DNA of 64,000 nucleotides, taken from positions 1,672 to 65,671 of IMG/VR virus record IMGVR_UViG_3300044631_000780. One strand, written 5' to 3'. The notes below the pieces were generated by a model, which was not told where the DNA came from, did not search any database, and saw nothing but the letters and a program-made list of their open reading frames with translations. The DNA is from a virus (Duplodnaviria; Caudoviricetes). The translations under genes and the position numbers were made by a program. Shown here piece by piece: positions 158 through 49,382 of the stretch (positions are counted from its first letter, which is position 1; every line of letters starts with the position of its first letter).

Positions 158-272
158 GATGTAAAGAATTGGTTTGAGATGGGGTGCCGATCTCCCCTAC
201 AGCAGTGAAGGATCTTACCTAGGACCTGTCCGATGTCGGGTGGTTTCGCTAGGAGGGTTCGCTTCTGAAAGT

Positions 273-330
273 ATTATAGGGGGTGAGGGGGGCAGATCAA
301 CGGGGTCTGTGCCACCTCTTCAACTGTCAC
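273..330 (-). promoter_or_regulatory. early promoter element copy 1 (palindrome 309-330; -10 TATAAT 273-278)
   Basis: gtgccacct-cttc-aactgtcac, 30 nt from the -10 box; TTGATC -35-like hexamer. Confidence 0.8.
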
Positions 331-554
331 CCCCCACCGTAGACATAGGAGACAATGCCAGCAGGATGATTCACACCCTCAATGACAGTAAACTCTCCAT
401 ACTTATCGAAATCATCAGCATGATAATCACCAAACTCTTTGATGAAGAAAACCCGAGCATCTTCTTTAGACTCGGCAGCGATCACACACATGCCAGAGGT
501 ATAATCAGAAAGAACTTCGTTCAGGATGTACAGATTCATTGCTTTGTTGTTCAT
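327..554 (-). CDS. hypothetical early protein
   Basis: ORF track; stop codon falls inside palindrome copy 1. Confidence 0.75.
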   Translation of the reverse strand: MNNKAMNLYILNEVLSDYTSGMCVIAAESKEDARVFFIKEFGDYHADDFDKYGEFTVIEGVNHPAGIVSYVYGGG

Positions 555-15584: not shown

Positions 15585-15587
15585 GCA

Positions 15588-16772: not shown

Positions 16773-16794
16773 TGGTTTGATTGATTACTTTGTA

Positions 16795-16852
16795 AGTATA
16801 GGGTCAATCCAGCTCGGACAGGGCACTCTGTAGACAGTTCCACAACTGGCAC
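16795..16852 (-). promoter_or_regulatory. early promoter element copy 11 (palindrome 16831-16852; -10 TATACT)
   Basis: tagacagtt-ccac-aactggcac, 30-nt gap. Confidence 0.75.
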
Positions 16853-16998: not shown

Positions 16999-17003
16999 AG
17001 GGG

Positions 17004-36400: not shown

Positions 36401-39400
36401 ATGTTACCAATGAATAGATTACTGTGATTTGCGCTATTACCGATCTTGATAAACTGATCGTTAGTAGCTTTATCTCCAATATAAATCCACTGATTAGCAG
36501 TTGTATGATCACCAATTCTAATTGTCTTAGAATAACCAGCAAGATTTAATCCACCAGTGTTGTCTCCACCAACGAATGTGCTGTCGTTTAGAAGATTGAA
36601 GGTTCCAGTAGTAATGCCAGTTCTGACTTCACCAGTAGCAGTGCCACTATCTGTGTAGATTTCAATATCTCTTTGGAATCTAGCATCTTCTGTAAATCTA
36701 GAATCACCAACAACTACAAGTGCTCTATTGAGTTGACTATTTGTAACTGATTGATTGGTATTAATTCCAAGTCTACCTAGGTTATTACCTCTGCCAGATT
36801 CGGAAATAGCAACCGTAGTAGTATCAACTCTTAAAGTGCTGTAGTTTGTTGGAGCAAGACTATCCCCACCAACTACAAGGGCGTCAGAAATCGCATTAAA
36901 TGTTCTGTTTGTTGGATTGGAGTTTGATAAGTAGTTATTTGGTGCTGTAGAAAGAGTTCTACCACTGATATATGCTTTACCAACAACATCAAGGTTAGCA
37001 CGAGGATCTGTTGTAGTAGGATCAACAAATCCATTAGCATATGCCGAGTGTGGAGAACGAGCAACAGTGTTGATGCCCAACTTATAGTTTCCAATGGATT
37101 CAGTTTCAGTTCTAAGTGCTTCAGAACCAATTACACCAACTTCCTTCCAAGAAGCATTTGAGAATTCAACACTTGGAGGTGTAGCTCCAATTGCTGTTCC
37201 AGCAATGATATCTGCCCAGTTCTCTACGGCAGCTGGAATTTGATCAATTACTTGGAAGTGAACATAATTATTAGTTGGCGAGAAAGCATCTCCTGGTTTG
37301 TTGTATACAACCCAAGTTAGATTTAGTCTAGGATCATAGTAGAAGTTGTTAACTCTGATTTGAGAACCAGAAGTGATACCAATATCTTGGTTTGTAATAT
37401 CAAGACCAGACTGACTATTCTTAAATGTTAGTTTTACTACATTGCTACCATCAAATGTAATTGTAAAGATGCTGTTATCAGCAATCTTTTGATAGTAGTT
37501 GGCAAGAATCCATCCAATAGATCCAGTTTTACCGATTTCAGAACCCTTAAGAAGAACATCACCAGGAACTGGTAATACACCACCATAAGTTACATATTGA
37601 GCAGAATTTACTCTGGTTCCACCATCAGCAACAAGAGGAGACTGGTTTGGAGTAATGTTTGCTGGAACACCAGAAGAAGTATGTGTTTGGAACATATACT
37701 TCTGTCCATTACCTCTGGCATTGAATTCAAATACAGCAGCGGTAACTTTATTCTTACTAATACGAATGTCACCAGCTGTTGGTGGTCTGAACGTTGTTCT
37801 ATCAAGACCTTGATCTTGCTCCAGTTGCGTAACTGGATCAACAGATGATACATTAGATCTGATGATTAGAACATCTCTTTGCTGAACTAGATCATTATCT
37901 TGTACAGCAATTAGAACTGGCGATTCAAACGAAGATACAAGAGTTCCATCTCCACCAACAACTGTTAGGTTCTGATTGAATGTAACTGGAGTATCAAATG
38001 TAGTAACTAGACCGCCAATTACATCATTCTCATCACCATCATCTTGTAAAGTCGCTGCGTCAATGAATGTTTCTTGACCAGTAATAGCATTGATTCTTCT
38101 ATTACCAATATAGAGATCACCCTGAGAGTTAATACCCGTGTAGAAGACGATACCAGCGTCTTGTTTCTTAGATTGGGCATAGAAGTCCTGCTCTGGTGTT
38201 AGAACGACTTCCTGACGCGCAGGGAGACCAGTAGAGTAGTTACCAGGACCGAAACCAAGGTATTCAAACGTATGGTTACCAGCACGAGCAATGGATGGTC
38301 TACGGAGTTCAACGTAGTAACGTTGATCATTAGCAACCGTGCTATCTCCAGAAATAGGAATTAAACGATCTTCCGATCCAGAAGTAGCATTTCCTTCCTG
38401 TGCTCTAATAGCATTAGATCCAGTGTAAGTGTTTTCAATGAAAGCTGGTTGACTGATAAGATCTTCAACAAGTTCTCTTGTTACAGAGTTCTTGTAATCG
38501 TTAACAGTAACAAGTCCATGAACATAGTTATCAGCGGCAGAGAATGCCTGTGGAGGATCAATCAGTGCTGCGTAATAATCCTTCTCTTCATTTGTAGTTC
38601 CATTGTTCTTAAACCAGAGAGGATCGTTTCTGTAGTTTAGAGGATATAGTCTGCTGACTGGTTGCGAGAACTTAAAGTTCTTGAAGTTGTTGATAACTCC
38701 AGCACCAGTTGGGAATGGAGAGATGTTACCACGTAGGCAAGTTAGATAGTAGATACCATCTTGCTGACCAGCAATACGGCGCTGTAGTGTTTCCGAAGCA
38801 AAGATATAGAATGTATCATCAATGATACCAGCATCTTCTACAGACTCAACATAGTATTCGATACCAGCGTCATCCTGAATGCGGTCACCAGGAGTAATGG
38901 TATAAACGTTGGCACCATTCTGTCTCCAGTAATATTCTGGATAACCCTTACGAATAAGAGTCTTCAGTGGCAACGATTTGCCCATATCCTGATCTTCCAG
39001 CATATCTGCGAAGACAGAACCTTGGGTAAATCTTACACTATCATACTCGCTATATTCTAGTTTACCACCACGAATATTCTTAATGATGAGGTAGTGATCA
39101 CCACCAACACTATAATAAGCATGAATGTTAGCAAGACCAGAGGAATATCCTGTAAATGTTACTTGGTTAGCAGTGATATTCTGAGTCTTGTTGGTTACAA
39201 AATCTCCACCTTGAGGAGCAGTGATCTTAATTGTTGTAAAGATCTCATTTCTCAAACCAGGGAAGTTCTTAGAGTCAACAGTGTGGTCATAAACTGTTAA
39301 TTCAAGATACTTAATATTAGAATTAAGAGCATCTGTTACATAACGACCACCTTGAATTGTTGCTTGAATACCAGAATTGAAACGAGCAAAAGCACGATAC

Positions 39401-42400
39401 TCAATACCAGCACCAGTCAAGTCTTTCTTGAATGGATCGTATGCTGCGTCAGTGTTAAGACCGTTCGTAGCAAACTGTGCTGCTGTGTATCCAATATATT
39501 CTCCAGCTTGAACTGGGTTTTCAAATCTAGCACCATACACAGAACCAGTAACTGGCTTGAGTAAGATCTTCTGAGGAATTAGTTTACGTGTATCGTCAGT
39601 TCTTGTCTTAAGAACAAATCCATTGATTGGATCTCTAGCATTCTGGAGATACTTAGGAATGACATAACGGATCTTATAAGTTCTATCGTCGGCTTCTCTA
39701 GTGTCATCTAAACGCTCATACCACATGTCCGTGGTTCTTGGTCTATCAGAATAATCAGATTGATTGATTCTCCAGAAAATATTCTCTTGCTGAACAGAAG
39801 ATGGTTGAGCAGTTACTTGATCCTTACACTGAATATACCACTTACCTGTTGTAGAAACAGAGTCAGTATAAGCAGGATCAAATCTCATTGGAGATCTACG
39901 CTTGTTAGCCCAAACATCAAATTTTAGTGAAGTTTGACCAGAAGCAAATGTAATTGGATTTACATTGTTGATCGCATCAGCATGTGTCTTGTGAATGGTG
40001 AATACTTTATCATTCTGATAACGAGCGAAGAATTCGATCTGAGGATTGATTCTACCGACATTAGAATTTGTGATGTCGGTAACAGCTACCGTGGGATCGT
40101 TAGCATAGGTGCTAGCAACAATTGGTAGAGATCCACCCTCAATTGCTCTAAAGAATACTCTATGTGGAGTTGTTGCTGCTGATGGAACGTCAAAAATGTG
40201 TGATACATCAGTCTCAATGCCAGCATTAACAGTATTTGTTAGATTACACTCATAGTTGTGTAATGTATACTTGTCATCGAGAACAAACTGATAGAGATCA
40301 ATTTCAACATCTGGATCAATACTGTCAGTTTCTGACGCATAGATGTAAATACCAGCAGCAGCATTCTCTTTAGAAGTTGCGAGCATCAGTTTTGTCTGAT
40401 CGCTTCCGTTAAAGAATGTAGTTGTACTGTAATCTGCTGGTTGAGTTCTTCTGCCAGGAGCAATTACATAGTAAGTTCTGTTTGGTTCAAATCCTTTTGG
40501 AAGTCTGATAAGACGCTTATCAATCTCAACATACTTACCAGTCTCAACATCAAATCTAGGACGAGGTACAAGTCTTACTGGTGTTCCAGTTTCAAAGTTA
40601 TGAGCATTTGTTGCTCCATATCCAGTAATATCAATCGTAAAGATTGTAGCACGAGAAGAAAGAAGTGCTGTGTTAACTGTCTGCTCTTGACGAGTAACAG
40701 TTCCAAGTCCACTGTTAATAATGGTTGTGATATTACCAACCAATGTGGTGATAGCATTAGCAACGTCGGCACATTCTCTTTGTGTTGGAGCTGATGGTGT
40801 ATATGCTTGAGTATCCTGAATAACATCTGGATTTGTATTCTCTGGTCCTACAGTTACTCTCTGTGGTAGAGTATTTGCCCAAGATCCTTTCTCATATGTA
40901 AAGTATAGTCTCGTTGTTGTGCTACTTTGTAGAGCATTTACTGTATTTCCAGTATCAAATCTAGAATTAGCAACTCCAAGTTCAATCGTAGTGTTACTTA
41001 CAATTCTCTTTACAAATGTATCTTTTGGAATATTTGTATAAATTGGAACCGCATTGTTTTGAAGTAGACCATTAACGTAAGGAGTTGGAGATGAAGCATA
41101 CTCAACAACTCTCATACCAATTACAATGCCACGAGTATCAGAAACGTTAACGAGAGCAGATCCAGTAGTTGTAACACAATTAATGGCAAGAACATCAAAG
41201 TTACGCATTGCTGCGATTGCCAGTTGTCCAACATAATTCCAAGCATCAATTGTCTCCGTCTTTTCTCCATCAATATATGTTAGATTATTTCCAACATAAT
41301 ATGCTTCACCAGCCTGAATGGAGTTAATATTTCCGCCAAGTCTCAAGTCGTTGACAACAGCATCAACAATATATGAAACGTCACGATAACACTTAGATTG
41401 CTTAGCATTTACAATAAAGTCTCCAGCATTTGCTGTTGGCAATCCAGCAAGAGATCCAGTGCCGATAGCATCGGTAACAATATCAAATAAGTTTTCAATT
41501 GATGAGCGAACATTAGCGCAATCCCACTCTCCATTAGTTAGAGGTGGAAGAGTATTGAGATTGCCAGCTTGAAGAGCATCACAAACAATACCAACTAATG
41601 TATCAACTGTTGCTAGAACATCAGAACAATTGCCAAGAGTATAGGTTGTTGGTTGTGCTGGGGCAGTTCTTGTAATACCAGTTAGATTTCCTACACCACC
41701 ATCGTTTCCAATTGCTTGTAGAAGAATGCCAAATAGGGTGTCAAGTGCTCCAACAGCAGAACCACACTTTGGTAGTAGTTCATCAGAATCCCAGTCATTA
41801 ACAATAGTAAGATCCTTCTTCTGCGTGAAAGTATTGCCAGATGTAACTGTTACTGTTTCGTTTCTAAGAACTTGAATTGCGATGTTCTTAACTTCCGTGA
41901 ATACTTTAGCAGCTTCATCACGCTCAGCATCAAGGAATGTCTGAATTGGTTGACCATTGAATATGTTTGTTACATAGATATTCGCTGCGTCATAAGTCTT
42001 GGAGTTTCCACCAAACTTGACATCCCACATCACTTCTTCTAGAACATCATAAACATCATCGAGACAATCTTGCTCAGTATTTCCAGTTTGTGGAACATAT
42101 GAAGGATATGCTGCCTTCATGCGTAGATATGCTTCCTTCGCAATGAATTCCTTGTTATCAAGAACAAGATTATAGGCATCAGCATGAATGTCAGCAACAA
42201 ATGCTGGATCTTCTGTGTTATCAAGTGTGAGTGTTAAGTCTCTTACATAATATTGATTGTTGATGGCACGATTCATCAAGTCAGCAGATCTCTTGAATGC
42301 TGTAATTGATGGATTAATTTCATTAACAAGACCGTTTGGAAGTAAGGTTGTATTATTAGTAAAATACTCCTTAGTTGCTGCGATGGTATATTCATTACCA

Positions 42401-45400
42401 CCAAACCAGAGATCCTGAGCAACAGCATCAACAATGTGACCGATATCTCTACGGCACTTGGTTTCACCAGTCAAGAATGTTCCAGCATTCTCAGCAGGAA
42501 GTGAATTGAGATTTCCAGCAGTTACAGCAGCAGTTACAATGCCAGTGAGAGTAGTGATTGCTGACTGGACGTTTGAACATGAAGATGAACTCTGATTATT
42601 GCCAGTCGCAGGATCTGCTGTGACAGTAAGATCTTTGTGGTAGAGTTGGTTTGTAATTGCTCTACGCATGAATTCAGCAGCTTCATTGAATGCTACATTG
42701 CTCTGAGCAGTTTCTCCAACTAAACCATTGCTGATTGGAGTTGTAACGTTAGTAAAATACTGCTGAATAAATGTTCTGGTGTGCTTATTACCGCCAGTGA
42801 ATAGGTCAACAGAAATGGCATCAATAAAGTATCCGATATCACGAGCACACTTTCTCATGCCAGCAGGAGCAGATCCTTTGTTGATCGTCTGTGGCATTGA
42901 ATTTAGATTGCCATCGTTAATAATTGTAGTTACGATGCCAGCAAGAGTGTCAATAGCAGAGCGAACGTTAGCACAAGAATTAGCATCAGTGTTGCTACCA
43001 GTAGCAGGATCAGCAGTAATAGTAAGATCCTTAACTGTGAGTTGGTTAGTGATAGCAAGTCTCATCAAGTTTCTTGCTTGATTGAAAGCATAGATGCTTT
43101 CTGTAACTTCACCAACTAGACCATTGCTGATTGGAGTTGTAGCATTTGAGAAATACTCAGCAGCAAATCTGTATGAATACTCGTTACCACGAATGAAAAG
43201 GTCAAGCGAGATCGCATCAACAAAGTATCCAAGGTCTCTCTTACACTTCGTTTCAGTAGAAGCAACACCAGGATACAGAGTGACCATATTGGTCCAAGCA
43301 GTATTGACAATTTCTGTCTTGTTCTGCTGAATTAGACGGTAGCTATCATAGAAACGCGAATCTGCTGTAGTTTGAGCATCGCCAGGGAAGTAGAAATCTG
43401 GATAATCAACAGCGATCTTAGCAAGTGCTCTATCAGTAATCTCTTTGCTATTGCGACGAATGAGACGGAACGCATCAGCAAAACGAGATTGTGCGTTGCT
43501 CTGAGTATCACCAGGCATGTAGAAATCTGGATGATAAACAGCAACTTCAGCAAGTGCTGCGTCAAGAATAAATTCTCTGTTAGCAAGAATACGATTACGA
43601 GCATCCTTATAACGACCAGCAGGATCTTGCTTATTTGCGGCATCAACTGTTACACCTTCACTATTCAATCCTAAAGCAGCAGATCCAGTGCTTCCTGCGA
43701 TCACACCATATGGACTTAGGATGCTAGGGTTCTCTGGATCATAAATTGCTGCTTTAACTGTAAGTAGATTAGCAACTGCTTTCTTACAAAGATCTCTTGC
43801 TCTGTTAAAAGCAAATACAGCATAGGTTTCTTCACCAACCAGACCGTTCTGTAATGGCGTACCGTCACCATTGAAGTAGAACTTGGTAGCTTCGATGGTG
43901 TTGAGGTTTCCGCCGTCTCTAAGGTCTTCTGCGATGGCATCTACAATAAATCCAATGTCACGCTTACACTTACCATTTGCAACACCTTGGATATTTCCAA
44001 TACCAAAAGTTTCAACCATTTGGTTGAATGCTGTGTCAACGATTTCTTGGCGGTTCGCAAGGATTAAGTTGCGAGCATCGAAGTAACGACCAGCAGCAGG
44101 ATTTAGACCAGGGTTGACATAAGGAATGTTTTGAAGTGCTGGATACTTCTCAAGAATATATCCAAAAACTTCCTCTTGGATCATTGTGCGATTGCTTTCA
44201 ATCAAGTTAGCAGCATCAGCGTAGATGCCATTGATTGAGATACCAGAAGGATTTAAAATTGATCCTTTCGCAATATACTTAACAAAACCAGTTGGTTCTA
44301 ATTCTACGTTAAATACTTCTCCAGTTCCAGCAGCAGGATCAAGTTTTACATATAGTTTGTCACCAGTTTTTGCTCCAAGTCTATAACCATCAATGGTCGC
44401 AGCTGGACGCTCTGTTGGAATAATAATGTCATCGCTACCCAAGAACAACTTAGTATAGTTGTTAGGATTTTGAATTGTTCCTTGAATATCAATCGTATAA
44501 TAAGTAACTTTTTTGATATTCTCAGCAGTTTCCTCTGCTTGCTGTGGTGGAATGATGTGAGTAATGTATCCACCTTTGTCTTGGTTGAACGCAAATCCTT
44601 TGAAACCAATCGCGTGTAGAGAGGTATTACCAAAGTTTGAGTTGGAGTTGGTGATGGACATGTCTCCACCACTTTCCATTAGGAAGTGATCAGCAAAACC
44701 AACGGCGAAGATGGAAACGTTCTGAATGAATGCGTCTTCTGAAGCACGAACGTGGAAGTTTCTCCACTCATCCTTCCAGTAACTATCACCCTTTGCGTGA
44801 TAAGGAACAGTAGCAAATGCGTCTGTTAGTGATGCTTGATTCCAAGTGTTTGAATACTCATCGTAACGGATGAATGCTCTATCGTCTTTCTGTAGAGAAA
44901 CACCAGTGTACTGAGCAATAACCATGGATCTAAATCCAGTGGCTTTTAGACCATTTGCCCAGATACCACAAATACCCCAGGTAGAACGAATTGAAACGTT
45001 GAAGACGTATGGAGAAGCAGATTCGACGCTATCAACCTCAGCAAGAGTTTGTGCGTTTTGTCCAAGGGCAGGAGTTGTATCTACACTGATTGTTTGTCCA
45101 GAAACAATGTTAGTGCCAATTCCACCAACAACGAATGGAACTTCATATTTAAATTTGCGAGGGTCATTCTCGTCAATCTCTTTGATTGGGAAAAATCCTT
45201 CAAGAACATCATCAATATTTGTATTTGAAATAGCAACAAATTGACCAGCAAAATATCCATGATCAACTTTAGTCGTTACTTCAACTTCAGTTGTGGATGC
45301 TGGAATGCTAGGATCAGTTGTCGCATCTACAAACTTCAGTGATTCAATAACACGAGAGTCAGATAAAGGACCAACAATTCTATTTTCTTGAATGTTGAAA

Positions 45401-46167
45401 TCAAATTCACCTGGATCATCAATTGTTGGTTGATAAGATGAAAATGCCTTAGCGATCTTTCTGTAGAATAATCCTAGCTCTTCACTATCAGCATATTCAA
45501 ATACTGTTAGTTTGTGGTGAGAGAAATTAGGAGCAGTAAGTTTGGTGAAGTCTTGAGGATCATAATAAACTTCACCAGTTCCTTCAGCAGAATTGAAAAG
45601 AGGAGATTCAGAAGTTGTTTGACCATCTTTAATAGTGAACTGCCAGAAGTAACATCCACCAGTTACATTAAAGATCGCAGAACGTGGGACAGTTACAGAA
45701 GCAGGATCAGGAACGTAGAGAGGTCTGATCGTTGTTCTACGAAGGTCATAACCAACAAGTGAAGAACCACGAGGAATAATAGCACCGCCTTCAGTGTTAT
45801 TAAACTTGTATAGTACGTTGTTTGGATTGGAGATATCAAGAATGCTATTATCAGTCCAAGCATTTAGAGCTTGATCAAATCCAAATACATCAATGCCATT
45901 AGTATCTACAAGACCAGGACGGTTATCAATATAGTGAATACCAGGCATCAGCATGATGCTGAACTGGTCAAAACGGTCATTATTCTTACCAGGAAGGTAA
46001 GAATATCTTGCGATTTCTAGGAAAGCACGCTGAATACTCTTGAATGGTGTAATTGGTGAATTACCTCTGTTGGATAACGCATCGGTTGCGTTAAAATCAT
46101 CAGGAGAAACATAAAGATACTTACCAGTTTTTGAACTGATAAGATTATCCAGACGTGTTAATGGCAT
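33433..46167 (-). CDS. giant (4244 aa) virion structural protein with six phycobiliprotein-like segments
   Basis: Late promoter upstream; N-terminal YVSP...PFKSIQRA beta-helix cap; C-terminal T4 baseplate/fibre-type LTLPSNPKTGDTIRI...GWW; CxRD repeats at about aa 650-1820. Confidence 0.85.
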   Translation of the reverse strand: MPLTRLDNLISSKTGKYLYVSPDDFNATDALSNRGNSPITPFKSIQRAFLEIARYSYLPGKNNDRFDQFSIMLMPGIHYIDNRPGLVDTNGIDVFGFDQALNAWTDNSILDISNPNNVLYKFNNTEGGAIIPRGSSLVGYDLRRTTIRPLYVPDPASVTVPRSAIFNVTGGCYFWQFTIKDGQTTSESPLFNSAEGTGEVYYDPQDFTKLTAPNFSHHKLTVFEYADSEELGLFYRKIAKAFSSYQPTIDDPGEFDFNIQENRIVGPLSDSRVIESLKFVDATTDPSIPASTTEVEVTTKVDHGYFAGQFVAISNTNIDDVLEGFFPIKEIDENDPRKFKYEVPFVVGGIGTNIVSGQTISVDTTPALGQNAQTLAEVDSVESASPYVFNVSIRSTWGICGIWANGLKATGFRSMVIAQYTGVSLQKDDRAFIRYDEYSNTWNQASLTDAFATVPYHAKGDSYWKDEWRNFHVRASEDAFIQNVSIFAVGFADHFLMESGGDMSITNSNSNFGNTSLHAIGFKGFAFNQDKGGYITHIIPPQQAEETAENIKKVTYYTIDIQGTIQNPNNYTKLFLGSDDIIIPTERPAATIDGYRLGAKTGDKLYVKLDPAAGTGEVFNVELEPTGFVKYIAKGSILNPSGISINGIYADAANLIESNRTMIQEEVFGYILEKYPALQNIPYVNPGLNPAAGRYFDARNLILANRQEIVDTAFNQMVETFGIGNIQGVANGKCKRDIGFIVDAIAEDLRDGGNLNTIEATKFYFNGDGTPLQNGLVGEETYAVFAFNRARDLCKKAVANLLTVKAAIYDPENPSILSPYGVIAGSTGSAALGLNSEGVTVDAANKQDPAGRYKDARNRILANREFILDAALAEVAVYHPDFYMPGDTQSNAQSRFADAFRLIRRNSKEITDRALAKIAVDYPDFYFPGDAQTTADSRFYDSYRLIQQNKTEIVNTAWTNMVTLYPGVASTETKCKRDLGYFVDAISLDLFIRGNEYSYRFAAEYFSNATTPISNGLVGEVTESIYAFNQARNLMRLAITNQLTVKDLTITADPATGSNTDANSCANVRSAIDTLAGIVTTIINDGNLNSMPQTINKGSAPAGMRKCARDIGYFIDAISVDLFTGGNKHTRTFIQQYFTNVTTPISNGLVGETAQSNVAFNEAAEFMRRAITNQLYHKDLTVTADPATGNNQSSSSCSNVQSAITTLTGIVTAAVTAGNLNSLPAENAGTFLTGETKCRRDIGHIVDAVAQDLWFGGNEYTIAATKEYFTNNTTLLPNGLVNEINPSITAFKRSADLMNRAINNQYYVRDLTLTLDNTEDPAFVADIHADAYNLVLDNKEFIAKEAYLRMKAAYPSYVPQTGNTEQDCLDDVYDVLEEVMWDVKFGGNSKTYDAANIYVTNIFNGQPIQTFLDAERDEAAKVFTEVKNIAIQVLRNETVTVTSGNTFTQKKDLTIVNDWDSDELLPKCGSAVGALDTLFGILLQAIGNDGGVGNLTGITRTAPAQPTTYTLGNCSDVLATVDTLVGIVCDALQAGNLNTLPPLTNGEWDCANVRSSIENLFDIVTDAIGTGSLAGLPTANAGDFIVNAKQSKCYRDVSYIVDAVVNDLRLGGNINSIQAGEAYYVGNNLTYIDGEKTETIDAWNYVGQLAIAAMRNFDVLAINCVTTTGSALVNVSDTRGIVIGMRVVEYASSPTPYVNGLLQNNAVPIYTNIPKDTFVKRIVSNTTIELGVANSRFDTGNTVNALQSSTTTRLYFTYEKGSWANTLPQRVTVGPENTNPDVIQDTQAYTPSAPTQRECADVANAITTLVGNITTIINSGLGTVTRQEQTVNTALLSSRATIFTIDITGYGATNAHNFETGTPVRLVPRPRFDVETGKYVEIDKRLIRLPKGFEPNRTYYVIAPGRRTQPADYSTTTFFNGSDQTKLMLATSKENAAAGIYIYASETDSIDPDVEIDLYQFVLDDKYTLHNYECNLTNTVNAGIETDVSHIFDVPSAATTPHRVFFRAIEGGSLPIVASTYANDPTVAVTDITNSNVGRINPQIEFFARYQNDKVFTIHKTHADAINNVNPITFASGQTSLKFDVWANKRRSPMRFDPAYTDSVSTTGKWYIQCKDQVTAQPSSVQQENIFWRINQSDYSDRPRTTDMWYERLDDTREADDRTYKIRYVIPKYLQNARDPINGFVLKTRTDDTRKLIPQKILLKPVTGSVYGARFENPVQAGEYIGYTAAQFATNGLNTDAAYDPFKKDLTGAGIEYRAFARFNSGIQATIQGGRYVTDALNSNIKYLELTVYDHTVDSKNFPGLRNEIFTTIKITAPQGGDFVTNKTQNITANQVTFTGYSSGLANIHAYYSVGGDHYLIIKNIRGGKLEYSEYDSVRFTQGSVFADMLEDQDMGKSLPLKTLIRKGYPEYYWRQNGANVYTITPGDRIQDDAGIEYYVESVEDAGIIDDTFYIFASETLQRRIAGQQDGIYYLTCLRGNISPFPTGAGVINNFKNFKFSQPVSRLYPLNYRNDPLWFKNNGTTNEEKDYYAALIDPPQAFSAADNYVHGLVTVNDYKNSVTRELVEDLISQPAFIENTYTGSNAIRAQEGNATSGSEDRLIPISGDSTVANDQRYYVELRRPSIARAGNHTFEYLGFGPGNYSTGLPARQEVVLTPEQDFYAQSKKQDAGIVFYTGINSQGDLYIGNRRINAITGQETFIDAATLQDDGDENDVIGGLVTTFDTPVTFNQNLTVVGGDGTLVSSFESPVLIAVQDNDLVQQRDVLIIRSNVSSVDPVTQLEQDQGLDRTTFRPPTAGDIRISKNKVTAAVFEFNARGNGQKYMFQTHTSSGVPANITPNQSPLVADGGTRVNSAQYVTYGGVLPVPGDVLLKGSEIGKTGSIGWILANYYQKIADNSIFTITFDGSNVVKLTFKNSQSGLDITNQDIGITSGSQIRVNNFYYDPRLNLTWVVYNKPGDAFSPTNNYVHFQVIDQIPAAVENWADIIAGTAIGATPPSVEFSNASWKEVGVIGSEALRTETESIGNYKLGINTVARSPHSAYANGFVDPTTTDPRANLDVVGKAYISGRTLSTAPNNYLSNSNPTNRTFNAISDALVVGGDSLAPTNYSTLRVDTTTVAISESGRGNNLGRLGINTNQSVTNSQLNRALVVVGDSRFTEDARFQRDIEIYTDSGTATGEVRTGITTGTFNLLNDSTFVGGDNTGGLNLAGYSKTIRIGDHTTANQWIYIGDKATNDQFIKIGNSANHSNLFIGNIDRDAAISKTKIGGAYDRLSSLSYVDFETKQVKFAGDVTFGSFKSLGGDRTNPEQVVTLSTEAGIVSFFSGNTQTMDFALNASEVRIAGQGGTTTIRNSLEIDGETIFNGNVHLCGGVAAFSFTANRAQLGTTAFAHDDGILGPTTFNQNVDLINVLQVPDSDPNFNRLDTAGSADWGSTDFQELIPGGGPEGSDLPALTGDLYYLPLLNPPGDYFREGDYLILDTVVDSVAGTHPEILRVAPGGLAGAETAPYYLTVQRRPLGTFTAVKTNHPDEPNNRTPIYKCNIAFDATWTEQSIDASGTTENVYLATFGGTLRTGVDYIVIDRTDTNSDGVFDQGEVFKLVSTLVQENKTFSILSGCPNGNVLFSVDSVTGETIIGNDGVSGENGKLTVNGSFTFVGGCKTASSQQFTGNAQAGLTTITAVTNTSGIEVGDYVQIVTGGGTVTLTQNRFPIDSGETRLTDPQVVSISGSTITLNLPFTGTGSQEGITFVANKNEKFSITDRVRDIFSVDACSGDTIVGNPSGTILAQRAKFGTSVAAHSSGATVYVILKDPKVDNSIATTFVDTVTAITTSATQLPVDDISDFANGDYILVGYGSGGNEEFMRISSNPVATSGNSGYLPVTRSPLAGTAKTHQDGESVWRVLIRETTTTTSAIGTTGGTNIEIGLKNSDLVPFFLDREYFMVIDSEVFEVTSTITNDGGTKLVKKDYHHGRLTVYDDVNFVGSNFRISGTDNNVPIINLVNNEEHHFEGGKLSINAATDVSGLFRVFPTTCVEEPDAIQFSNRSFLPTFRVEPNFGDTFVGRLLDVAGISSSIAAQSQKILDIRNLGDGGTKNFTIRQDCSVDAFGYEGWKNSNGGHITKFVNANTTLQVNINYIVAVAPSTGALVLTLPSNPKTGDTIRITEVGGQLTYNNSLVIRAPIVGGEPVAIQGDTEGTRLGGLSTPYASGELVVQNKNASFGLIYVGQTDGDNFIPATYQGWWLTEL

Positions 46168-46326: not shown

Positions 46327-46342
46327 ATGTTTTTTGAAACAA

Positions 46343-46417
46343 CACTCTCTGTAGGATTCGAACCTACGACACCTTGATCCGTAGTCAAGTGCTCTATATC
46401 CACTGAGCTAAGAGAGT
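46343..46417 (-). tRNA. tRNA-Arg(ACG)
   Basis: Cloverleaf; anticodon arm CTTGA-CTACGGA-TCAAG. Confidence 0.92.
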
Positions 46418-46420
46418 AGG

Positions 46421-46492
46421 CGAAGGGTGAGAGATTCGAACTCCCATCGCAAGGTTTTGGAGACCTGCATCTTACCGTTAGACCAACCCAAC
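46421..46492 (-). tRNA. tRNA-Trp(CCA), two U-U mismatches in the acceptor stem
   Basis: Anticodon loop CTCCAAA; T-loop TTCGAAT; acceptor GTTGGGT/ACCCTTC. Confidence 0.8.
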
Positions 46493-46567
46493 TGGTTCTG
46501 AGGGTAGGATTCGAACCCACGAATGGCGGGACCAAAACCCGCTGCCTTACCGCTTGGCGACCTCAGA
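46493..46567 (-). tRNA. tRNA-Gln(TTG)
   Basis: Cloverleaf with encoded CCA. Confidence 0.93.
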
Positions 46568-46568
46568 A

Positions 46569-46642
46569 TGGGGTGACGTATGGGAATTGAACCCATCTAG
46601 GTGGTTCCACAAACCACTGCCTTACCACTAGGCTAACGTCAC
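46569..46642 (-). tRNA. tRNA-His(GTG)
   Basis: Cloverleaf; C73 and encoded CCA; position -1 is T rather than G. Confidence 0.92.
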
Positions 46643-46643
46643 A

Positions 46644-46717
46644 TAGCAGTAGGTAGATTTGAACTACCGACCATAGGCGTATGAAACCCGTGCTCTGCCA
46701 GACTGAGCTATACTGCT
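46644..46717 (-). tRNA. tRNA-Met(CAT)
   Basis: Cloverleaf; loop TTCATAC; weak anticodon stem. Confidence 0.82.
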
Positions 46718-46721
46718 AAAA

Positions 46722-46802
46722 TGGACGCTGACCTGCTGGTTACTCTTTCTGCGGAGGGAGGCGTCAGTCTTTTATATCCGAGCAAGCACCTTGCTGGAGT
46801 CC
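46722..46802 (-). ncRNA. candidate structured ncRNA A in the tRNA array
   Basis: GGAC/GTCC closing stem ending in CCA; AGCAAG/CTTGCT hairpin; CTGAC/GTCAG stem; fills a tRNA-sized slot. Confidence 0.55.
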
Positions 46803-46804
46803 TA

Positions 46805-46891
46805 CGGAAGATGTTGGATTCGAACCAACGGAAAGATTACTCCTTCGACGGTTTAGCAAACCGTTGCTTTAGACCTCTCAGCCAATCTTCC
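46805..46891 (-). tRNA. tRNA-Ser(GCT)
   Basis: Cloverleaf with long variable arm; G73. Confidence 0.93.
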
Positions 46892-46895
46892 AAAG

Positions 46896-46967
46896 TGGAA
46901 CCGACAAGATTTGAACTTGTGACCGCTCGGTTATCAGCCGAGTGCTCTACCACTGAGCTACGATTCC
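46896..46967 (-). tRNA. tRNA-Ile(GAT)
   Basis: Anticodon arm CTCGG-CTGATAA-CCGAG. Confidence 0.93.
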
Positions 46968-46970
46968 AAA

Positions 46971-47042
46971 TAGTCTCAACGGGACTTGAACCCGTGTCTA
47001 CACTGTGAAAGAGTGTTGTCCTAACCACTAGACGATGAGACC
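46971..47042 (-). tRNA. tRNA-Glu(TTC)
   Basis: Anticodon arm ACACT-CTTTCAC-AGTGT. Confidence 0.92.
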
Positions 47043-47045
47043 ATA

Positions 47046-47119
47046 CGACCCATACGGGATTCGAACCCGTGATCTCCACCGTGACAGGGTGGCGTGATAA
47101 GCCGCTACACTAATGGGTC
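47046..47119 (-). tRNA. tRNA-Asp(GTC)
   Basis: Anticodon arm CCACC-CTGTCAC-GGTGG. Confidence 0.93.
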
Positions 47120-47123
47120 AAGG

Positions 47124-47205
47124 TGGGAGGAACAGGATTTGAACCTGTGAAGGCAGAGCCGTCTGATTTACAGTCAGATTCCTTTAACCACTCGGAAATC
47201 CTCCC
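47124..47205 (-). tRNA. tRNA-Tyr(GTA)
   Basis: Anticodon arm TCTGA-CTGTAAA-TCAGA; long variable arm. Confidence 0.93.
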
Positions 47206-47209
47206 ACGA

Positions 47210-47282
47210 TGGGTCTGGTCGGGCTCGAACCGACGACTTACAGGTTAAAAGCCCGCTACTCTACCAACTGAGTTACAGACCC
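47210..47282 (-). tRNA. tRNA-Lys(TTT)
   Basis: Cloverleaf; loop CTTTTAA. Confidence 0.93.
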
Positions 47283-47293
47283 AAAGGGTTAAA

Positions 47294-47348
47294 TTGTCAA
47301 GGTGCTGGTCGGGGTGGTTCCCCTTCCGTTGATGGATGTATCATAGCA
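47294..47348 (-). promoter_or_regulatory. tRNA operon leader: extended -10 promoter, boxB-like hairpin, boxA-like GCACCTTGACAA
   Basis: TGC-TATGAT at 47340-47348; GGGG-AACCA-CCCC hairpin 47311-47323; boxA-like 12-mer 47294-47305. Confidence 0.55.
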
Positions 47349-47376
47349 AAAGGGGGCGGTTTTTGACCTGCCCCCC
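47348..47376 (-). terminator. probable rho-independent terminator
   Basis: Minus strand GGGGGGCAGGT...ACCGCCCCC followed by TTTT. Confidence 0.55.
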
Positions 47377-47408
47377 TGATAAATCTTGCTTATGTGTCAG
47401 ATGTTAGA

Positions 47409-47510
47409 TCATCGTTTCCACTTATGAGCAAGCAGGGGCGCTTGAGCGATATGCCAATAGCGGCAATCGCTTTCCATAATAATATCAATTTGCTTGCTGA
47501 AGTTAGACAT
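47409..47510 (-). CDS. hypothetical 33-aa late peptide
   Basis: Hand translation MSNFSKQIDIIMESDCRYWHIAQAPLLAHKWKR; TATAAATA at 47533-47540. Confidence 0.5.
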   Translation of the reverse strand: MSNFSKQIDIIMESDCRYWHIAQAPLLAHKWKR

Positions 47511-47553
47511 GATTTTCGACCTTTAGTGTGTTTATTTATAAGGGTTTTTGAAA

Positions 47554-47625
47554 CTGGGGCGGCGGGATTCGAACCTGCAACCGATCGGTTAACAGCCGAT
47601 AGCTCTGCCGTTGAGCTACACCCCA
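47554..47625 (-). tRNA. tRNA-Asn(GTT)
   Basis: Anticodon arm ATCGG-CTGTTAA-CCGAT. Confidence 0.92.
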
Positions 47626-47631
47626 ATGAAA

Positions 47632-47802
47632 TCAGGACTGTTGAGTGTCCATCATATATTCTACAGTATTTGCTATGTCATTCATAGCATCACGTAGATG
47701 TGGTTGTTGTCCGCTTTCTTGACGAACAATTGGTCTATGATCATCTGTGAGTGACCAGCGCCATTGTTTCATTATAGCACAGTACCACAGATTAATTTTC
47801 AT
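47632..47802 (-). CDS. conserved cyanophage hypothetical protein
   Basis: MKINLWYC..MKQWRW...; start moved from the track call. Confidence 0.7.
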   Translation of the reverse strand: MKINLWYCAIMKQWRWSLTDDHRPIVRQESGQQPHLRDAMNDIANTVEYMMDTQQS

Positions 47803-47947
47803 GTTTGAAACTTTCCAATCGAATCCAGTTGGCAAGGGCGTTAAGTTGCATTCTTTTGTCTTCAGTAAAGTCATATTTTTTATTAAAAAGATAGAACTCA
47901 ATTGCTTCAAGTGCTAATTGTCTGTCTGCTTGTGAAATGAGTGACAT
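47792..47947 (-). CDS. hypothetical protein
   Basis: MSLISQADRQLALEAIE; start moved past tRNA-Ala. Confidence 0.65.
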   Translation of the reverse strand: MSLISQADRQLALEAIEFYLFNKKYDFTEDKRMQLNALANWIRLESFKHEN

Positions 47948-47966
47948 AGTGAGTATATAGAACTCA

Positions 47967-48039
47967 TGGAGAATAGGAGACTCGAACTCCTGACAGCCTG
48001 CTTGCAAAGCAGGTGCTCTACCAACTGAGCTAATTCCCC
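47967..48039 (-). tRNA. tRNA-Ala(TGC)
   Basis: Cloverleaf with G3:U70. Confidence 0.94.
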
Positions 48040-48042
48040 TAA

Positions 48043-48131
48043 TGGTAGGAGGGGGGAGCATCACCTTAAGCCCCCCTCTTTACTTCACTTAGCCACAGAA
48101 TACTAGACCAAGGAGAGGTTTTGGTTCCTAC
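48043..48131 (-). ncRNA. candidate structured ncRNA B
   Basis: GTAGGA/TCCTAC closing stem ending in CCA; GGGGGGC/GCTCCCCCC hairpin; ACCAA/TTGGT hairpin. Confidence 0.55.
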
Positions 48132-48134
48132 ATT

Positions 48135-48196
48135 TGGGGGGATGATCGGACTTCACCCAGAAGGCAAAGTCCTTAAGACCCTGCCAAATCATCCCC
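48135..48196 (-). ncRNA. candidate structured ncRNA C
   Basis: 9-bp GGGGATGAT/ATCATCCCC stem plus unpaired CCA; internal hairpin. Confidence 0.55.
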
Positions 48197-48245
48197 TTAC
48201 GACGCTACGGAAGATACCCGTAGTAGAAGTTGGCATTACTGCCAA

Positions 48246-48319
48246 AGCCCAAGGTCGGACTTGAACCGACGACCTACGGTTTACAAAACCGTTGCTCTAT
48301 CCAGCTGAGCTACTCAGGC
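48246..48319 (-). tRNA. tRNA-Thr(TGT)
   Basis: Anticodon arm ACGGT-TTTGTAA-ACCGT; first 10 nt overlap the end of cpeT. Confidence 0.92.
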
Positions 48320-48834
48320 ATTTTTACAAATTTGAATGCTCCCCAGTCAGAACCCCAAATTTTTTCATGTGTCTCTGCGTGTAATCCACGATCAACAACA
48401 TGATATTCAGTTTTAGTAAGAGTGACTTCGTTTTGAACATAGGTTTTTATACCTTGCCAATCAACCCAGCACTCACAGGTGGAGGTTCCACCCTGGAACA
48501 TTTCAGGTCCCGTCTGTGTCATAATAATATCACATCCCTCTCGGTATGTCAAGATGTCATCTGTGATGAGTTCAAGGTTTTGACACTCAACAAATCTAGA
48601 AGCATCTTGGATTTCGTAGTTTTTGAGACGGAACTGCCCCTTCTCAACCTCTACATCAATCACAAACTGACGATATGGGTTATTTAGAAGGTAATTGTAT
48701 GCTTGTTCTCCATAGAAACGATAATCGGAAATTTTCCGATGTTGTACCCGAATATGAGCATAACGAGTAGGATGAGATTGTGCTTGCCGTTTGTTAGCAA
48801 AGGTTCCTTCAAGATATTCAAGAAACTGGTTCAT
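48310..48834 (-). CDS. cpeT: CpeT/CpcT (T-type) phycobilin lyase
   Basis: FANKRQAQSHPTRYAHI...YGEQAY...PYRQ...GCD...DRG...WGS..GAFKF. Confidence 0.92.
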   Translation of the reverse strand: MNQFLEYLEGTFANKRQAQSHPTRYAHIRVQHRKISDYRFYGEQAYNYLLNNPYRQFVIDVEVEKGQFRLKNYEIQDASRFVECQNLELITDDILTYREGCDIIMTQTGPEMFQGGTSTCECWVDWQGIKTYVQNEVTLTKTEYHVVDRGLHAETHEKIWGSDWGAFKFVKMPE

Positions 48835-49099
48835 CGGGTAAAACTTCGGGATTAACTAAATCTAACTCAAACAATACGGGGTGGCATTCTTCAGCAATCA
48901 AATAATCAGAATAACGGAAGATATCTTCCATAGTATATTCTTGATTGAGTGCTGCTTCTGCTAAGATCCACTTATCGTGTTTCTCGTTTTCTTCTAAGAT
49001 GTCAAAAGCAAATGGTATGTTCTCAATATAATACATCAGCACAGGTTCGCTGTCAACAAAGACATGCTTTCGAGTGATGGTGTATCTGAAAACTGCCAT
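48818..49099 (-). CDS. conserved cyanophage hypothetical protein
   Basis: ORF track; GTAAATA late-type promoter at 49130-49136. Confidence 0.75.
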   Translation of the reverse strand: MAVFRYTITRKHVFVDSEPVLMYYIENIPFAFDILEENEKHDKWILAEAALNQEYTMEDIFRYSDYLIAEECHPVLFELDLVNPEVLPDEPVS

Positions 49100-49143
49100 T
49101 ACATTTGATCTCTCAAAATTTCCTGTTACTATTTACACAGGAA

Positions 49144-49216
49144 TACCCGTGGTCGGATTCGAACCGACACTGGAGGGATTTTAAGTCCCCTGTCTCTGCC
49201 GTTGGACTACACGGGC
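49144..49216 (-). tRNA. tRNA-Leu(TAA), short variable loop
   Basis: Anticodon arm GGGGA-CTTAAAA-TCCCT; 5-nt variable region. Confidence 0.9.
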
Positions 49217-49220
49217 AAGG

Positions 49221-49293
49221 TGCTCCTTGAGGGGATCGAACCCACCTTAGGCGAATTATGAGTTCGCTGCATTCACCAGATTGCTAAAGGAGC
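49221..49293 (-). tRNA. tRNA with CAT anticodon (Ile2/lysidine type or Met)
   Basis: Anticodon arm GCGAA-CTCATAA-TTCGC. Confidence 0.85.
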
Positions 49294-49296
49294 GAA

Positions 49297-49368
49297 TGGG
49301 GATACTGGGAGTTGAACCCAGACTAACCCGTTATAAGCAGGCCGCTCTAACCATTAAGCTATACCCCC
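49297..49368 (-). tRNA. tRNA-Ile(TAT)
   Basis: Anticodon arm GCCTG-CTTATAA-CGGGT; A73. Confidence 0.9.
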
Positions 49369-49382
49369 ATAAAATTAGGGCA

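What the first reader, a model, noticed from the sequence alone, without database searches (positions are those of the whole stretch)
40720..44230. Giant virion protein carries six phycobiliprotein-like domains with both bilin-attachment cysteines: candidate pigmented virion
Seen: three segment types each occur six times in the 4244-aa protein. (N) x-D-A-x-x-L/R-I-x-x-N-x-x-x-I...A...YP, with Asp at aa 651, 697, 855, 898, 941 and 1330. (M) KCKRDIGF (C734), KCKRDLGY (C975), KCARDIGY (C1107), KCRRDIGH (C1238), DCLDDVYD (C1368), KCYRDVSY (C1593), each followed by ..DA/E...DL..GGN. (C) SCANVRSAI (C1065), SCSNVQSAI (C1197), KCGSAVGAL (C1468), NCSDVLATV (C1514), DCANVRSSIENLFD (C1550), ECADVANAI (C1799). 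Established: alpha-phycocyanin Cys84 sits in KCARDIGY, where Asp87 binds the bilin. The beta subunit has RLD(39)...ITSNASTIV..A...P and the Cys155 site GDCS.L..EI..YFD, with Asp39 contacting the beta-155 bilin. Inference: these are globin-fold phycobiliprotein homologues that keep both sites (up to 12 cysteines per chain), so the particle could be covalently pigmented for photoprotection, light-gated adsorption or host mimicry. The alignment is by eye. I do not know of a description of this, although automated domain hits may exist.
Basis: partly seen in the sequence, partly recalled or inferred. Interest (0 to 1): 0.93.

Follow-up and report, generated by a model that had tools for sequence, protein, structure and literature searches.

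The report
Phycobiliprotein-like domains nested in cyanophage fibre
A giant tail-fibre-type protein of a marine cyanobacterial virus contains six domains, nested inside one another, that are distant relatives of its host's light-harvesting pigment proteins and keep the pigment-attachment residues, so one can now test whether the virus particle carries pigment and senses light.

Summary
All 12 cysteine motifs and six N-helices sit where stated in the 4244-aa ORF (33433-46167, minus strand), and the repeats are real.

The fold reading is supported:
- Pfam PF00502 passes its threshold for the whole protein only.
- The unit profile matches CpcA by hhalign (87%, E 3.7e-6).
- AlphaFold models are confident (pLDDT 93 and 90).
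- The best structural matches are phycobiliproteins (Z 16.0, rmsd 1.9 Å over 136 residues).

The domains lack the X/Y helices. They are nested like brackets, not tandem. The Cys84-Arg86-Asp87 equivalent is kept in 97/94/99% of 1432 copies in 151 proteins. The second cysteine sits where beta-Cys153/155 would, but it is not family-wide and the sequence support is weak.

A T-type bilin lyase gene, cpeT, lies 2.1 kb upstream. Among named phage records the module was found only in cyanophages (351 of 351 matching records). It co-occurs with cpeT in 21 of 22 genomes, but the three joint absences form one clade and S-SKS1 is discordant.

Pigment on the virion is untested. I put it at about 0.5. No searched paper describes the module. 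Automated Pfam hits exist, and this scan has noted the same module on other DNA.

The parts
33433..46167 (-). Giant ORF, 4244 aa, tail-fibre or baseplate-type virion protein
   Evidence: PHROG tail-fibre families phrog_4527, phrog_529 and phrog_5342. Homologues are annotated short tail fibre, tail protein or structural protein.
40693..44229 (-). Array of six phycobiliprotein-like domains (aa 647-1825), order NNMNNNMCMCMNMCCCMC
   Evidence: Pfam PF00502 scores 34.5 bits for the whole protein.
42895..43359 (-). Domain E, contiguous (aa 937-1091: N941, Cys975, Cys1065), innermost
   Evidence: AF2 pLDDT 93.1, pTM 0.91. VIA Z 16.0 to phycoerythrin beta.
43387..43488 (-). Domain D, N-helices (aa 894-927), separated from the rest of the domain by domain E
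   Evidence: pLDDT 96 and 95 in the 340-aa model, pTM 0.90. Two globin rows span model residues 2..331 and 6..334.
42499..42858 (-). Domain D, M and C parts (aa 1104-1223: Cys1107 in KCARDIGY, Cys1197)
43516..43617 (-). Domain C, N-helices (aa 851-884)
   Evidence: Bracket parse.
42214..42465 (-). Domain C, M part (aa 1235-1318, Cys1238)
41548..41634 (-). Domain C, C part (aa 1512-1540, Cys1514)
41686..42192 (-). Domain F, contiguous (aa 1326-1494: N1330, Cys1368 in DCLDD with Arg lost, Cys1468), inserted between the M and C parts of domain C
43729..44091 (-). Domain B, N and M parts (aa 693-813, Cys734)
41440..41526 (-). Domain B, C part (aa 1548-1576, Cys1550)
44128..44229 (-). Domain A (outermost), N-helices (aa 647-680)
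41155..41400 (-). Domain A, M part (aa 1590-1671, Cys1593)
40780..41154 (-). About 125 aa (aa 1672-1796) that match none of the N, M or C models, lying between the M and C parts of domain A
   Evidence: Gap between HMM hits; sequence. Not folded here.
40693..40779 (-). Domain A, C part (aa 1797-1825, Cys1799)
48310..48834 (-). cpeT, T-type phycobilin lyase family gene (174 aa), 2.1 kb upstream on the same strand
   Evidence: PF06206 at 145.4 bits against a cut-off of 21. Homologues are annotated CpeT or chromophore lyase.
46342..49369 (-). Cluster of 17 tRNA genes that surrounds cpeT and separates it from the giant gene

Best explanation
Shown in silico: aa 647-1825 of this giant tail-fibre or baseplate-type protein of a T4-like cyanomyovirus is built from six phycobiliprotein-derived globin-fold domains. 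They lack the N-terminal X/Y hairpin. They are inserted into one another: one domain sits in the loop between the N-helices and the Cys-bearing helix of the next, or between its M and C parts. Each domain keeps the Cys-x-Arg-Asp bilin-attachment signature of Cys82/84 (five of six keep the Arg). Each also has a second cysteine directly before the last helix, where beta-Cys153/155 lies.

Inferred, at about 0.5: during assembly in the infected cell these domains receive a covalently bound host bilin at the first cysteine. The bilin would be added autocatalytically or by host S/U-type lyases. In this clade a bilin would also be added at the second cysteine by the phage's own T-type lyase CpeT, encoded 2.1 kb upstream. 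The fibre would then be a chromoprotein.

The most likely use, at about 0.2 overall, is light sensing that gates adsorption. Photoprotection and plain stabilisation of the fold by the ligand are alternatives.
For: Homology:
- PF00502 scores 34.5 bits, E 2.4e-8, against a cut-off of 22.2.
- All 19 PDB sequence hits of the region are phycocyanin alpha chains, aligned on KCARDIGY...GG.
- With a profile of 51 units, 29 of 30 PDB hits are PBPs or PBP-derived, and the match now covers the N-helix, YP, CxRD and GG.
- hhalign against a 14-sequence CpcA alignment gives 87.4%, E 3.7e-6, over 81 columns.

Fold:
- AF2 gives pLDDT 93.1 and pTM 0.91.
- The top 8 VIA rows are all PBP or ApcE chains, Z 16.0-12.7. 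The best is rmsd 1.9 Å over 136 residues, model 1-150 against chain 31-184. Other globins reach at most 11.5.
- All Foldseek rows shown are PBPs or derivatives.

Nesting:
- The window's order parses as well-formed brackets.
- 30 of 35 complete, non-duplicate arrays do so, in 9 architectures.
- The 340-aa model of D around E has pTM 0.90, with the outer N-helices at pLDDT 95-96.
- Two globin rows span residues 2..331 and 6..334.

Constraint on the site: Cys 97%, Arg 94% and Asp 99% in 1432 M copies from 151 proteins (150 representatives at 50% identity plus the window's own). Tandem-type relatives keep this cysteine without any second cysteine. That argues against an M-C disulfide as the general role.

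Context:
- cpeT lies next door. The same neighbourhood is seen in S-RSM4, S-WAM2, S-CAM4, ACG-2014j, S-CAM1, Syn1 and S-RIM44 (coordinates).
- All 351 phage records with a match are cyanophages or a marine virus.
- 18 of 19 module-bearing genomes have a CpeT-family ORF, and 0 of 3 genomes without the module do.
- P-HM1 and P-HM2 do not adsorb in the dark and S-PM2 adsorption is light-dependent, while P-SSM2 adsorbs in the dark (passages of PMC6628666). The first three carry the module and P-SSM2 does not.
Against: - No chromophore has been shown, and none of the tools can show one.
- No single unit reaches the Pfam cut-off (11.9-14 bits in 3 of 6 pieces, no hit in the other 3).
- PDB sequence E-values are 0.0037 at best.
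- No Foldseek match reaches E<=0.001.
- The tool warns that helical models can reach Z about 14 without a true relative.
- hhalign to CpcB gives only 17.7%, and the second-cysteine register only 1.9%.
- In the CpcA alignment, the CpcA Trp128/Tyr129 positions (residues that I recall as lining the alpha-84 bilin pocket) are not conserved in the phage units.
- Some units read xCxDD, or lack the cysteine, in this window (DCLDD) and in P-HM2, Syn19 and P-SSM4.
- The co-occurrence with cpeT rests on one independent event. The three genomes lacking both form one clade (92/93) on a gp48 tree of 11 rows, with 4 of the 14 panel genomes left out for lack of a hit.
- S-SKS1 has the module but no CpeT match.
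- In S-PM2, Syn9, S-RIM2 and P-HM2 cpeT is far from the module.
- No bilin reductase, heme oxygenase or CpeS is found in the 65.7-kb record, which is only 34% complete.
- P-SSM2 adsorption is still enhanced by light.
- I recall no report of coloured cyanophage preparations.
Confidence: 0.5

Rival explanations
1. Apo structural module. A PBP domain captured from the host is used only as a rigid helical building block or spacer of the fibre, without any chromophore. The conserved Cys, Arg and Asp serve folding or inter-domain contacts.
For: The module is amplified to as many as 35 matched stretches per protein, like a structural repeat. It lacks the X/Y helices and the Trp128/Tyr129 wall. It has phage-specific conserved polar residues that PBPs do not share, such as Asp at Cys+14 (98%) and Asn at Cys+20 (83%). 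Some units have lost Arg or Cys. No pigment is reported in the papers searched.
Against: Copies have diverged to about 25-30% identity, yet they keep exactly the three residues that bind bilin in PBPs, at 97/94/99%. Buried Arg-Asp and a free thiol on an extracellular protein are hard to explain without a ligand (inference). The neighbouring cpeT and its distribution would be coincidence.
Confidence: 0.33
2. The conserved cysteines form disulfide or other cross-links (between domains or between chains of a trimeric fibre), or bind a metal. They stabilise the particle in sea water and do not carry bilin.
For: Conserved cysteines in extracellular proteins are usually disulfide-bonded (general knowledge). 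In this clade the M and C cysteines are equal in number, 6 and 6. Nesting brings domains into contact.
Against: Tandem-type relatives keep the M cysteine with no C cysteine. Within one PBP fold the two sites are far apart (recalled geometry, not measured here). The Arg-Asp that follows the cysteine has no role in a disulfide.
Confidence: 0.12
3. No true homology. An unrelated helical repeat happens to carry a CxRD motif, and AlphaFold forces it into a PBP-like bundle.
For: Single-unit sequence scores are marginal. No Foldseek match reaches E<=0.001. Helical models can score Z about 14 by chance (note).
Against: Independent lines agree. The summed Pfam score is above the cut-off. hhalign gives E 3.7e-6 over 81 columns, collinear from the N-helix through YP, CxRD and GG. 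PBPs fill the top of three structure and sequence searches. The best match has rmsd 1.9 Å over 136 of 161 residues. The module is found only in phages of PBP-bearing hosts or their relatives.
Confidence: 0.05

Closest known systems
Phycobiliprotein subunits (Pfam PF00502: CpcA/CpcB, CpeA/CpeB, ApcA/ApcB)
   Same: Globin-like fold from helix A/B to helix H. The order is B-helix, YP, loop, K-C-x-R-D-[IL]-G-Y, then GG. A cysteine sits directly before the last helix, as in beta subunits.
   Different: No X/Y hairpin, so no alpha-beta monomer is expected. The domains are part of a 4244-aa virion protein, are nested, and are not free 160-180-aa subunits. The Trp128/Tyr129 side of the pocket is not kept. 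A chromophore is not shown.
ApcE (core-membrane linker) bilin-binding PB domain
   Same: A PBP domain embedded in a large multidomain protein. It ranks second in the structure search: 4xxi_A, Z 14.8, rmsd 2.0 Å over 116 residues, and full-length ApcE chains reach Z 13.2. I recall that ApcE carries a loop insertion inside the domain and attaches its bilin autocatalytically.
   Different: ApcE has one such domain, is cellular, and is part of the phycobilisome. I recall that its bilin cysteine is not at position 84. Here whole domains are inserted into domains, six deep in total.
Photocobilins (B12- and biliverdin-binding photoreceptors with a globin-like domain)
   Same: A PBP-like globin domain used outside light harvesting. 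Structural match at Z 11.5 and 10.8 (8j2w_B, 8j2y_B).
   Different: Lower structural similarity than to PBPs. I recall that the bilin is bound non-covalently. Bacterial cytoplasmic proteins. No CxRD motif was examined here.
Cyanophage CpeT (PhiCpeT of P-HM1) and cellular CpcT/CpeT lyases
   Same: The neighbouring 174-aa ORF is a full-length PF06206 member. T-type lyases serve the beta-Cys153-equivalent site (review passage in PMC10452541). That is the position of the second cysteine here.
   Different: The published view is that phage CpeT acts on host antenna proteins (passages in PMC2984593 and PMC10452541). A phage structural protein as its substrate is my inference. The primary paper (PMC5336146) was not held.

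Membership tests
Phycobiliprotein family (Pfam PF00502) | Sequence match to the family model above the curated cut-off | tested here: met
   Whole protein scores 34.5 bits against 22.2. In the genome scan, 25.4 bits with neighbours in the frame. No single unit passes: 11.9, 12.3 and 14.0 bits in 3 of 6 pieces, no hit in the other 3. Precomputed PF00502 on 92 of 120 listed homologues.
Phycobiliprotein family (Pfam PF00502) | Globin-like helical fold (helices A, B, E, F, G, H) | tested here: met
   AF2 pLDDT 93.1. VIA Z 16.0, rmsd 1.9 Å, 136 residues aligned to phycoerythrin beta. The top 8 rows are PBP or ApcE chains. This is a prediction, not an experiment.
Phycobiliprotein family (Pfam PF00502) | N-terminal X/Y helical hairpin that builds the alpha-beta monomer | tested here: not met
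   Model residue 1 aligns to chain residues 31-33. In both hhalign alignments the aligned part of the PBP profile begins at residue 38 (CpcB) or 41 (CpcA). In the array each domain starts directly with the N (B-helix) segment.
Phycobiliprotein family (Pfam PF00502) | Cys82/84 followed by Arg86 and Asp87 on helix E | tested here: met
   Six of six units have Cys and Asp; five of six have Arg. They are aligned to C84/R86/D87 of CpcA and C82/R84/D85 of CpcB. Family-wide: 97/94/99% in 1432 copies.
Phycobiliprotein family (Pfam PF00502) | Second attachment cysteine of beta subunits (Cys153/155) before helix H | tested here: inconclusive
   The cysteine is directly before the last helix, 19 residues from the end of the aligned fold, as in CpcB. 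hhalign puts it on C153 but at 1.9% probability. It is absent from tandem-type relatives.
Phycobiliprotein family (Pfam PF00502) | Covalently bound bilin chromophore | not testable with these tools
   Needs absorbance, Zn-fluorescence or MS of virions or of a recombinant domain.
Phycobiliprotein family (Pfam PF00502) | Assembly into (alpha-beta)3 discs and phycobilisomes | not tested
   Unlikely without X/Y helices and within a 4244-aa fibre protein (inference).
T-type phycobilin lyases (Pfam PF06206, CpcT/CpeT), for the neighbouring ORF 48310-48834 | Full-length match to the family model | tested here: met
   145.4 bits, residues 4-171 on profile positions 2-181 of 181.
T-type phycobilin lyases (Pfam PF06206, CpcT/CpeT), for the neighbouring ORF 48310-48834 | Lyase activity on a Cys153-equivalent site | not testable with these tools
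   Needs a co-expression assay.

The most novel reading that the evidence does not exclude
The cyanophage particle carries its own biliprotein photoreceptor. The nested PBP-like domains of the fibre or baseplate protein are chromophorylated in the infected cell, and the phage's CpeT serves the second cysteine. Light absorbed by these bilins switches the fibre into an adsorption-competent state. This would explain two things: why adsorption of phages such as S-PM2, P-HM1 and P-HM2 needs light independently of host photosynthesis, and what phage cpeT is for.
Probability: 0.2. Interest if true: 0.95.

Novelty: new variant of a known kind. Interest (0 to 1): 0.78.

Why it matters
Two open questions in cyanophage biology become directly testable. 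The first is the role of the phage-borne lyase gene cpeT, whose assumed target is the host antenna. The second is the mechanism of light-dependent adsorption. [quoted passage not shown] A bilin-bearing virion protein would be a light-absorbing structural component of a virus particle; I know of no precedent (recall, not searched). Even without pigment two things are unusual. A light-harvesting protein has been recruited into phage fibres: 1210 representative proteins at E<=0.001. And it has a Russian-doll domain architecture.

Tried and rejected
- Self-BLAST of the region gave only the self hit. phmmer was used instead.
- The first 640 aa have no PDB sequence relative at E<=0.1.
- Neither the N-terminal part nor the C-terminal part (aa 1830-4244) was folded.
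- VIA on the 340-aa model was meant to show the outer, discontinuous domain against PBPs. All PBP rows chose the inner domain (43..202). Only two weak globin rows (Z 6.4 and 6.3) span 2..331 and 6..334, so this test of nesting is only suggestive.
- hhalign of the six short C segments against CpcB gave the expected register without significance.
- Co-occurrence with cpeT looked perfect at first: 14 of 14. It was then downgraded. The three joint absences are one clade on a gp48 tree (4 of the 14 genomes had no gp48 hit at E<=1e-10 and were left out, all four carrying both features). Of 8 further module-bearing genomes, picked because they were not in the displayed CpeT list, 7 have CpeT and S-SKS1 has none.
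- The tblastn totals, 351 records against 210, are not comparable, because many CpeT hits lie at the E-value limit.
- Searches of the 65.7-kb record for bilin reductase, heme oxygenase and CpeS were negative. They say little, because the record is 34% complete.
- The statement in the 2010 review that P-SSM4 lacks cpeT (passage) is not borne out by the HMM search, which finds a 148-aa ORF at 37.4 bits.
- Literature: eight searches found no description of PBP-like domains in phage structural proteins. For PMC2984593, PMC10452541 and PMC6628666 I saw passages only. PMC5336146 (Gasper et al. 2017) is not held and is cited from recall. Jia et al. 2010 is known to me only through its citation in PMC6628666. 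Supplements were not opened.

Full report
**What is there.** The window comes from a 65.7-kb virus record that is about 34% complete. It is related to T4-like Synechococcus phages such as S-WAM2, S-RSM4 and S-CAM4. The finding lies in one ORF of 4244 aa on the minus strand, 33433-46167. The gene sits in a tail and baseplate module:
- upstream, a gp5-like hub protein with Calx-beta, a tail lysozyme, and baseplate hub, wedge and tube-cap genes;
- downstream, three tail-collar-domain fibre proteins, a 2OG-Fe(II) oxygenase and a tail-fibre assembly chaperone.

PHROGs place the protein in tail-fibre families. Homologues are annotated as short tail fibre, tail protein, baseplate wedge initiator or structural protein, including the 'structural protein; putative fiber' of Syn9.

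**The observation.** All 12 quoted cysteine motifs and the six N-helices are at the stated residues. The repeats are truly homologous (phmmer; HMMs).

**Are they phycobiliprotein relatives?** Sequence evidence:
- PF00502 passes its gathering score for the whole protein (34.5 against 22.2 bits, E 2.4e-8). No single unit does.
- Against PDB sequences the region hits only phycocyanin alpha chains (19 of 19, best E 0.0037), through KCARDIGY...GG.
- A profile of unit aa 935-1095 was built from 47 IMG/VR orthologues and three other units of the window. It hits 29 PBP or PBP-derived chains among 30. Each hit is weak (E 0.015-1.9), but the match extends over the N-helix, YP, the loop, CxRD and GG.
- Profile against profile gives 87.4% and E 3.7e-6 over 81 columns to CpcA, but only 17.7% to CpcB. 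The CpcA and CpcB alignments have 14 sequences each, taken from cyanobacterial loci.

Structure evidence:
- AlphaFold2 gives pLDDT 93.1 and pTM 0.91.
- An all-against-representatives structural search puts eight PBP or ApcE chains on top (Z 16.0 to 12.7). The best is phycoerythrin beta, rmsd 1.9 Å over 136 residues, model 1-150 on chain 31-184.
- Photocobilin, RsbR-type and sensor globins follow at Z 11.5 or less.
- All Foldseek rows shown are PBPs or PBP-derived proteins, but none reaches E<=0.001.
- The tool warns that helical models can score about Z 14 by arrangement alone.

So I rest the case on the agreement of several lines, not on one score. I put PBP ancestry at about 0.9. The domain starts at PBP residue about 31, so the X/Y hairpin that makes alpha-beta monomers is missing. 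These are therefore not canonical PBP subunits.

**Nesting.** The order of segments is N N M N N N M C M C M N M C C C M C. Read as brackets (N opens, M continues, C closes), this is well formed:
- A = N651, M1593, C1799. It encloses B.
- B = N697, M734, C1550. It encloses C.
- C = N855, M1238, C1514. It encloses D, and also F.
- D = N898, M1107, C1197. It encloses E.
- E = N941, M975, C1065, contiguous.
- F = N1330, M1368, C1468, contiguous. It lies between the M and C parts of C.

For six domains, only 1428 of 17,153,136 orderings are well formed (my count). Among the fetched orthologues, 30 of 35 complete, non-duplicate arrays are well formed, in nine different architectures (for example NNMCMC, NNNMCMCMC, NMNNMCMCC).

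A 340-aa model of D enclosing E has pLDDT 90.4 and pTM 0.90, with the outer N-helices at 95-96. Two globin chains aligned over residues 2..331 and 6..334, while all PBP rows took the inner domain. I tested it and agree.

**The attachment sites.** The first cysteine and the Arg and Asp after it align with Cys84/Arg86/Asp87 of CpcA and Cys82/Arg84/Asp85 of CpcB. An exhaustive profile search found 1210 representative proteins at E<=0.001, mostly giants of 2000-7900 aa with up to 35 matched stretches. In 1432 M copies from the best 150 representatives plus this protein, Cys is kept in 97%, Arg in 94% and Asp in 99%.

The second cysteine lies directly before the last helix, the same 19 residues from the end of the fold as Cys153 of CpcB. 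The sequence support for that register is not significant. Tandem-type giants with 30-34 units have no cysteine there. Units with both cysteines occur in P-HM2 and Syn19, and some units there read xCxDD or lack the cysteine.

The M cysteine is conserved without a partner. I take that as evidence against an M-C disulfide as the general role. I could not measure distances, because coordinates are not returned.

**Context.** A full-length T-type lyase gene, cpeT, lies at 48310-48834 on the same strand, inside a cluster of 17 tRNA genes. The same neighbourhood holds in the clade that has the module in the 'short tail fibre' (S-RSM4, S-WAM2, S-CAM4, ACG-2014j, S-CAM1, Syn1, S-RIM44). It does not hold in S-PM2, Syn9, S-RIM2 or P-HM2.

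All 351 phage records with a tblastn match are named Synechococcus, Prochlorococcus or Cyanophage, apart from one 'Marine virus'.

Co-occurrence with cpeT:
- In a panel of 14 reference genomes the module and a CpeT-family ORF are both present in 11 and both absent in 3: P-SSM2, S-SM2 and S-SSM7.
- On a gp48 tree these three form one clade (92/93). That makes one event, not three.
- Of eight further module-bearing genomes chosen to break the rule, seven have CpeT and S-SKS1 has none.
It is not strict and is statistically weak.

**Light.** According to passages of PMC6628666, four things hold:
- P-HM1 and P-HM2 do not adsorb in the dark.
- S-PM2 adsorption is light-dependent and independent of host photosynthesis.
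- P-SSM2 adsorbs in the dark, though less well than in the light.

The first three phages carry the module and P-SSM2 does not. That is four phages, related in the same way as above, so it is a lead and no more.

**Verdict.** Shown in silico: six nested, PBP-derived, X/Y-less globin domains with the Cys-x-Arg-Asp site under very strong constraint, in a virion fibre or baseplate protein, next to a phage T-type bilin lyase. Inferred: covalent bilin on the virion (about 0.5) and light-gated adsorption (about 0.2). Rivals: an apo structural module (0.33), cysteine cross-links or metal binding (0.12), no true homology (0.05).

**Novelty.** Eight literature searches found no description. Automated PF00502 hits are already attached to 92 of 120 listed homologues, including the S-RSM4 'putative short tail fibre'. 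BFVD holds predicted pieces of the same fold from cyanophage giants. This scan has reported the same module on other genomes. Those notes were leads, and I re-tested their claims here.

Noticed in passing
window 46342-49369 (-): Seventeen tRNA genes in one cluster, with cpeT (48310-48834) and a 93-aa ORF (48818-49099) embedded in it. The last tRNA (Arg, 46342-46418) ends 175 bases upstream of the giant gene's start.
   Followed up: partly
W02 (Prochlorococcus phage P-SSM4, NC_006884.2) 16642-17064: A 148-aa ORF matches the CpeT family (37.4 and 22.9 bits). A 2010 review states that P-SSM4 has no cpeT.
   Followed up: partly
W15 (Synechococcus phage S-SKS1, HQ633071.1) 17280-17780: This 208-kb phage is outside Kyanoviridae. 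It has one PBP-like unit in a hypothetical protein (15531-18317) but no CpeT-family match. It was the only discordant genome of 22.
   Followed up: partly
P0010, P0011, P0012 (representative proteins, 4799-6382 aa): Giant proteins hold 30-34 tandem units, spaced about 136-165 aa apart. They keep the CxRD cysteine but have no second cysteine. This branch of the family is tandem, not nested.
   Followed up: partly
window 40780-41154 (-), aa 1672-1796: About 125 aa that match none of the N, M or C models lie between the M and C parts of the outermost domain. The stretch was not folded or searched on its own.
   Followed up: no
window 51460-54339 (-): The gp5-like baseplate hub protein (959 aa) carries a Calx-beta domain (50.4 bits) besides the Gp5 OB domain.
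   Followed up: no
window 26101-26721 (-): A 2OG-Fe(II) oxygenase gene lies between the tail-collar fibre genes and the tail-fibre assembly chaperone gene.
   Followed up: no
W04/W08 (P-HM1, P-HM2) about 54.5-57.6 kb and 82.4-83.9 kb; W12 (Syn1) 21.6-26.3 kb and 96.3-97.2 kb: In these phages the module occurs in two different giant ORFs of one genome: 4448/4458 aa and 3681/3682 aa in P-HM1/P-HM2, and 4026 aa and 3381 aa in Syn1.
   Followed up: no
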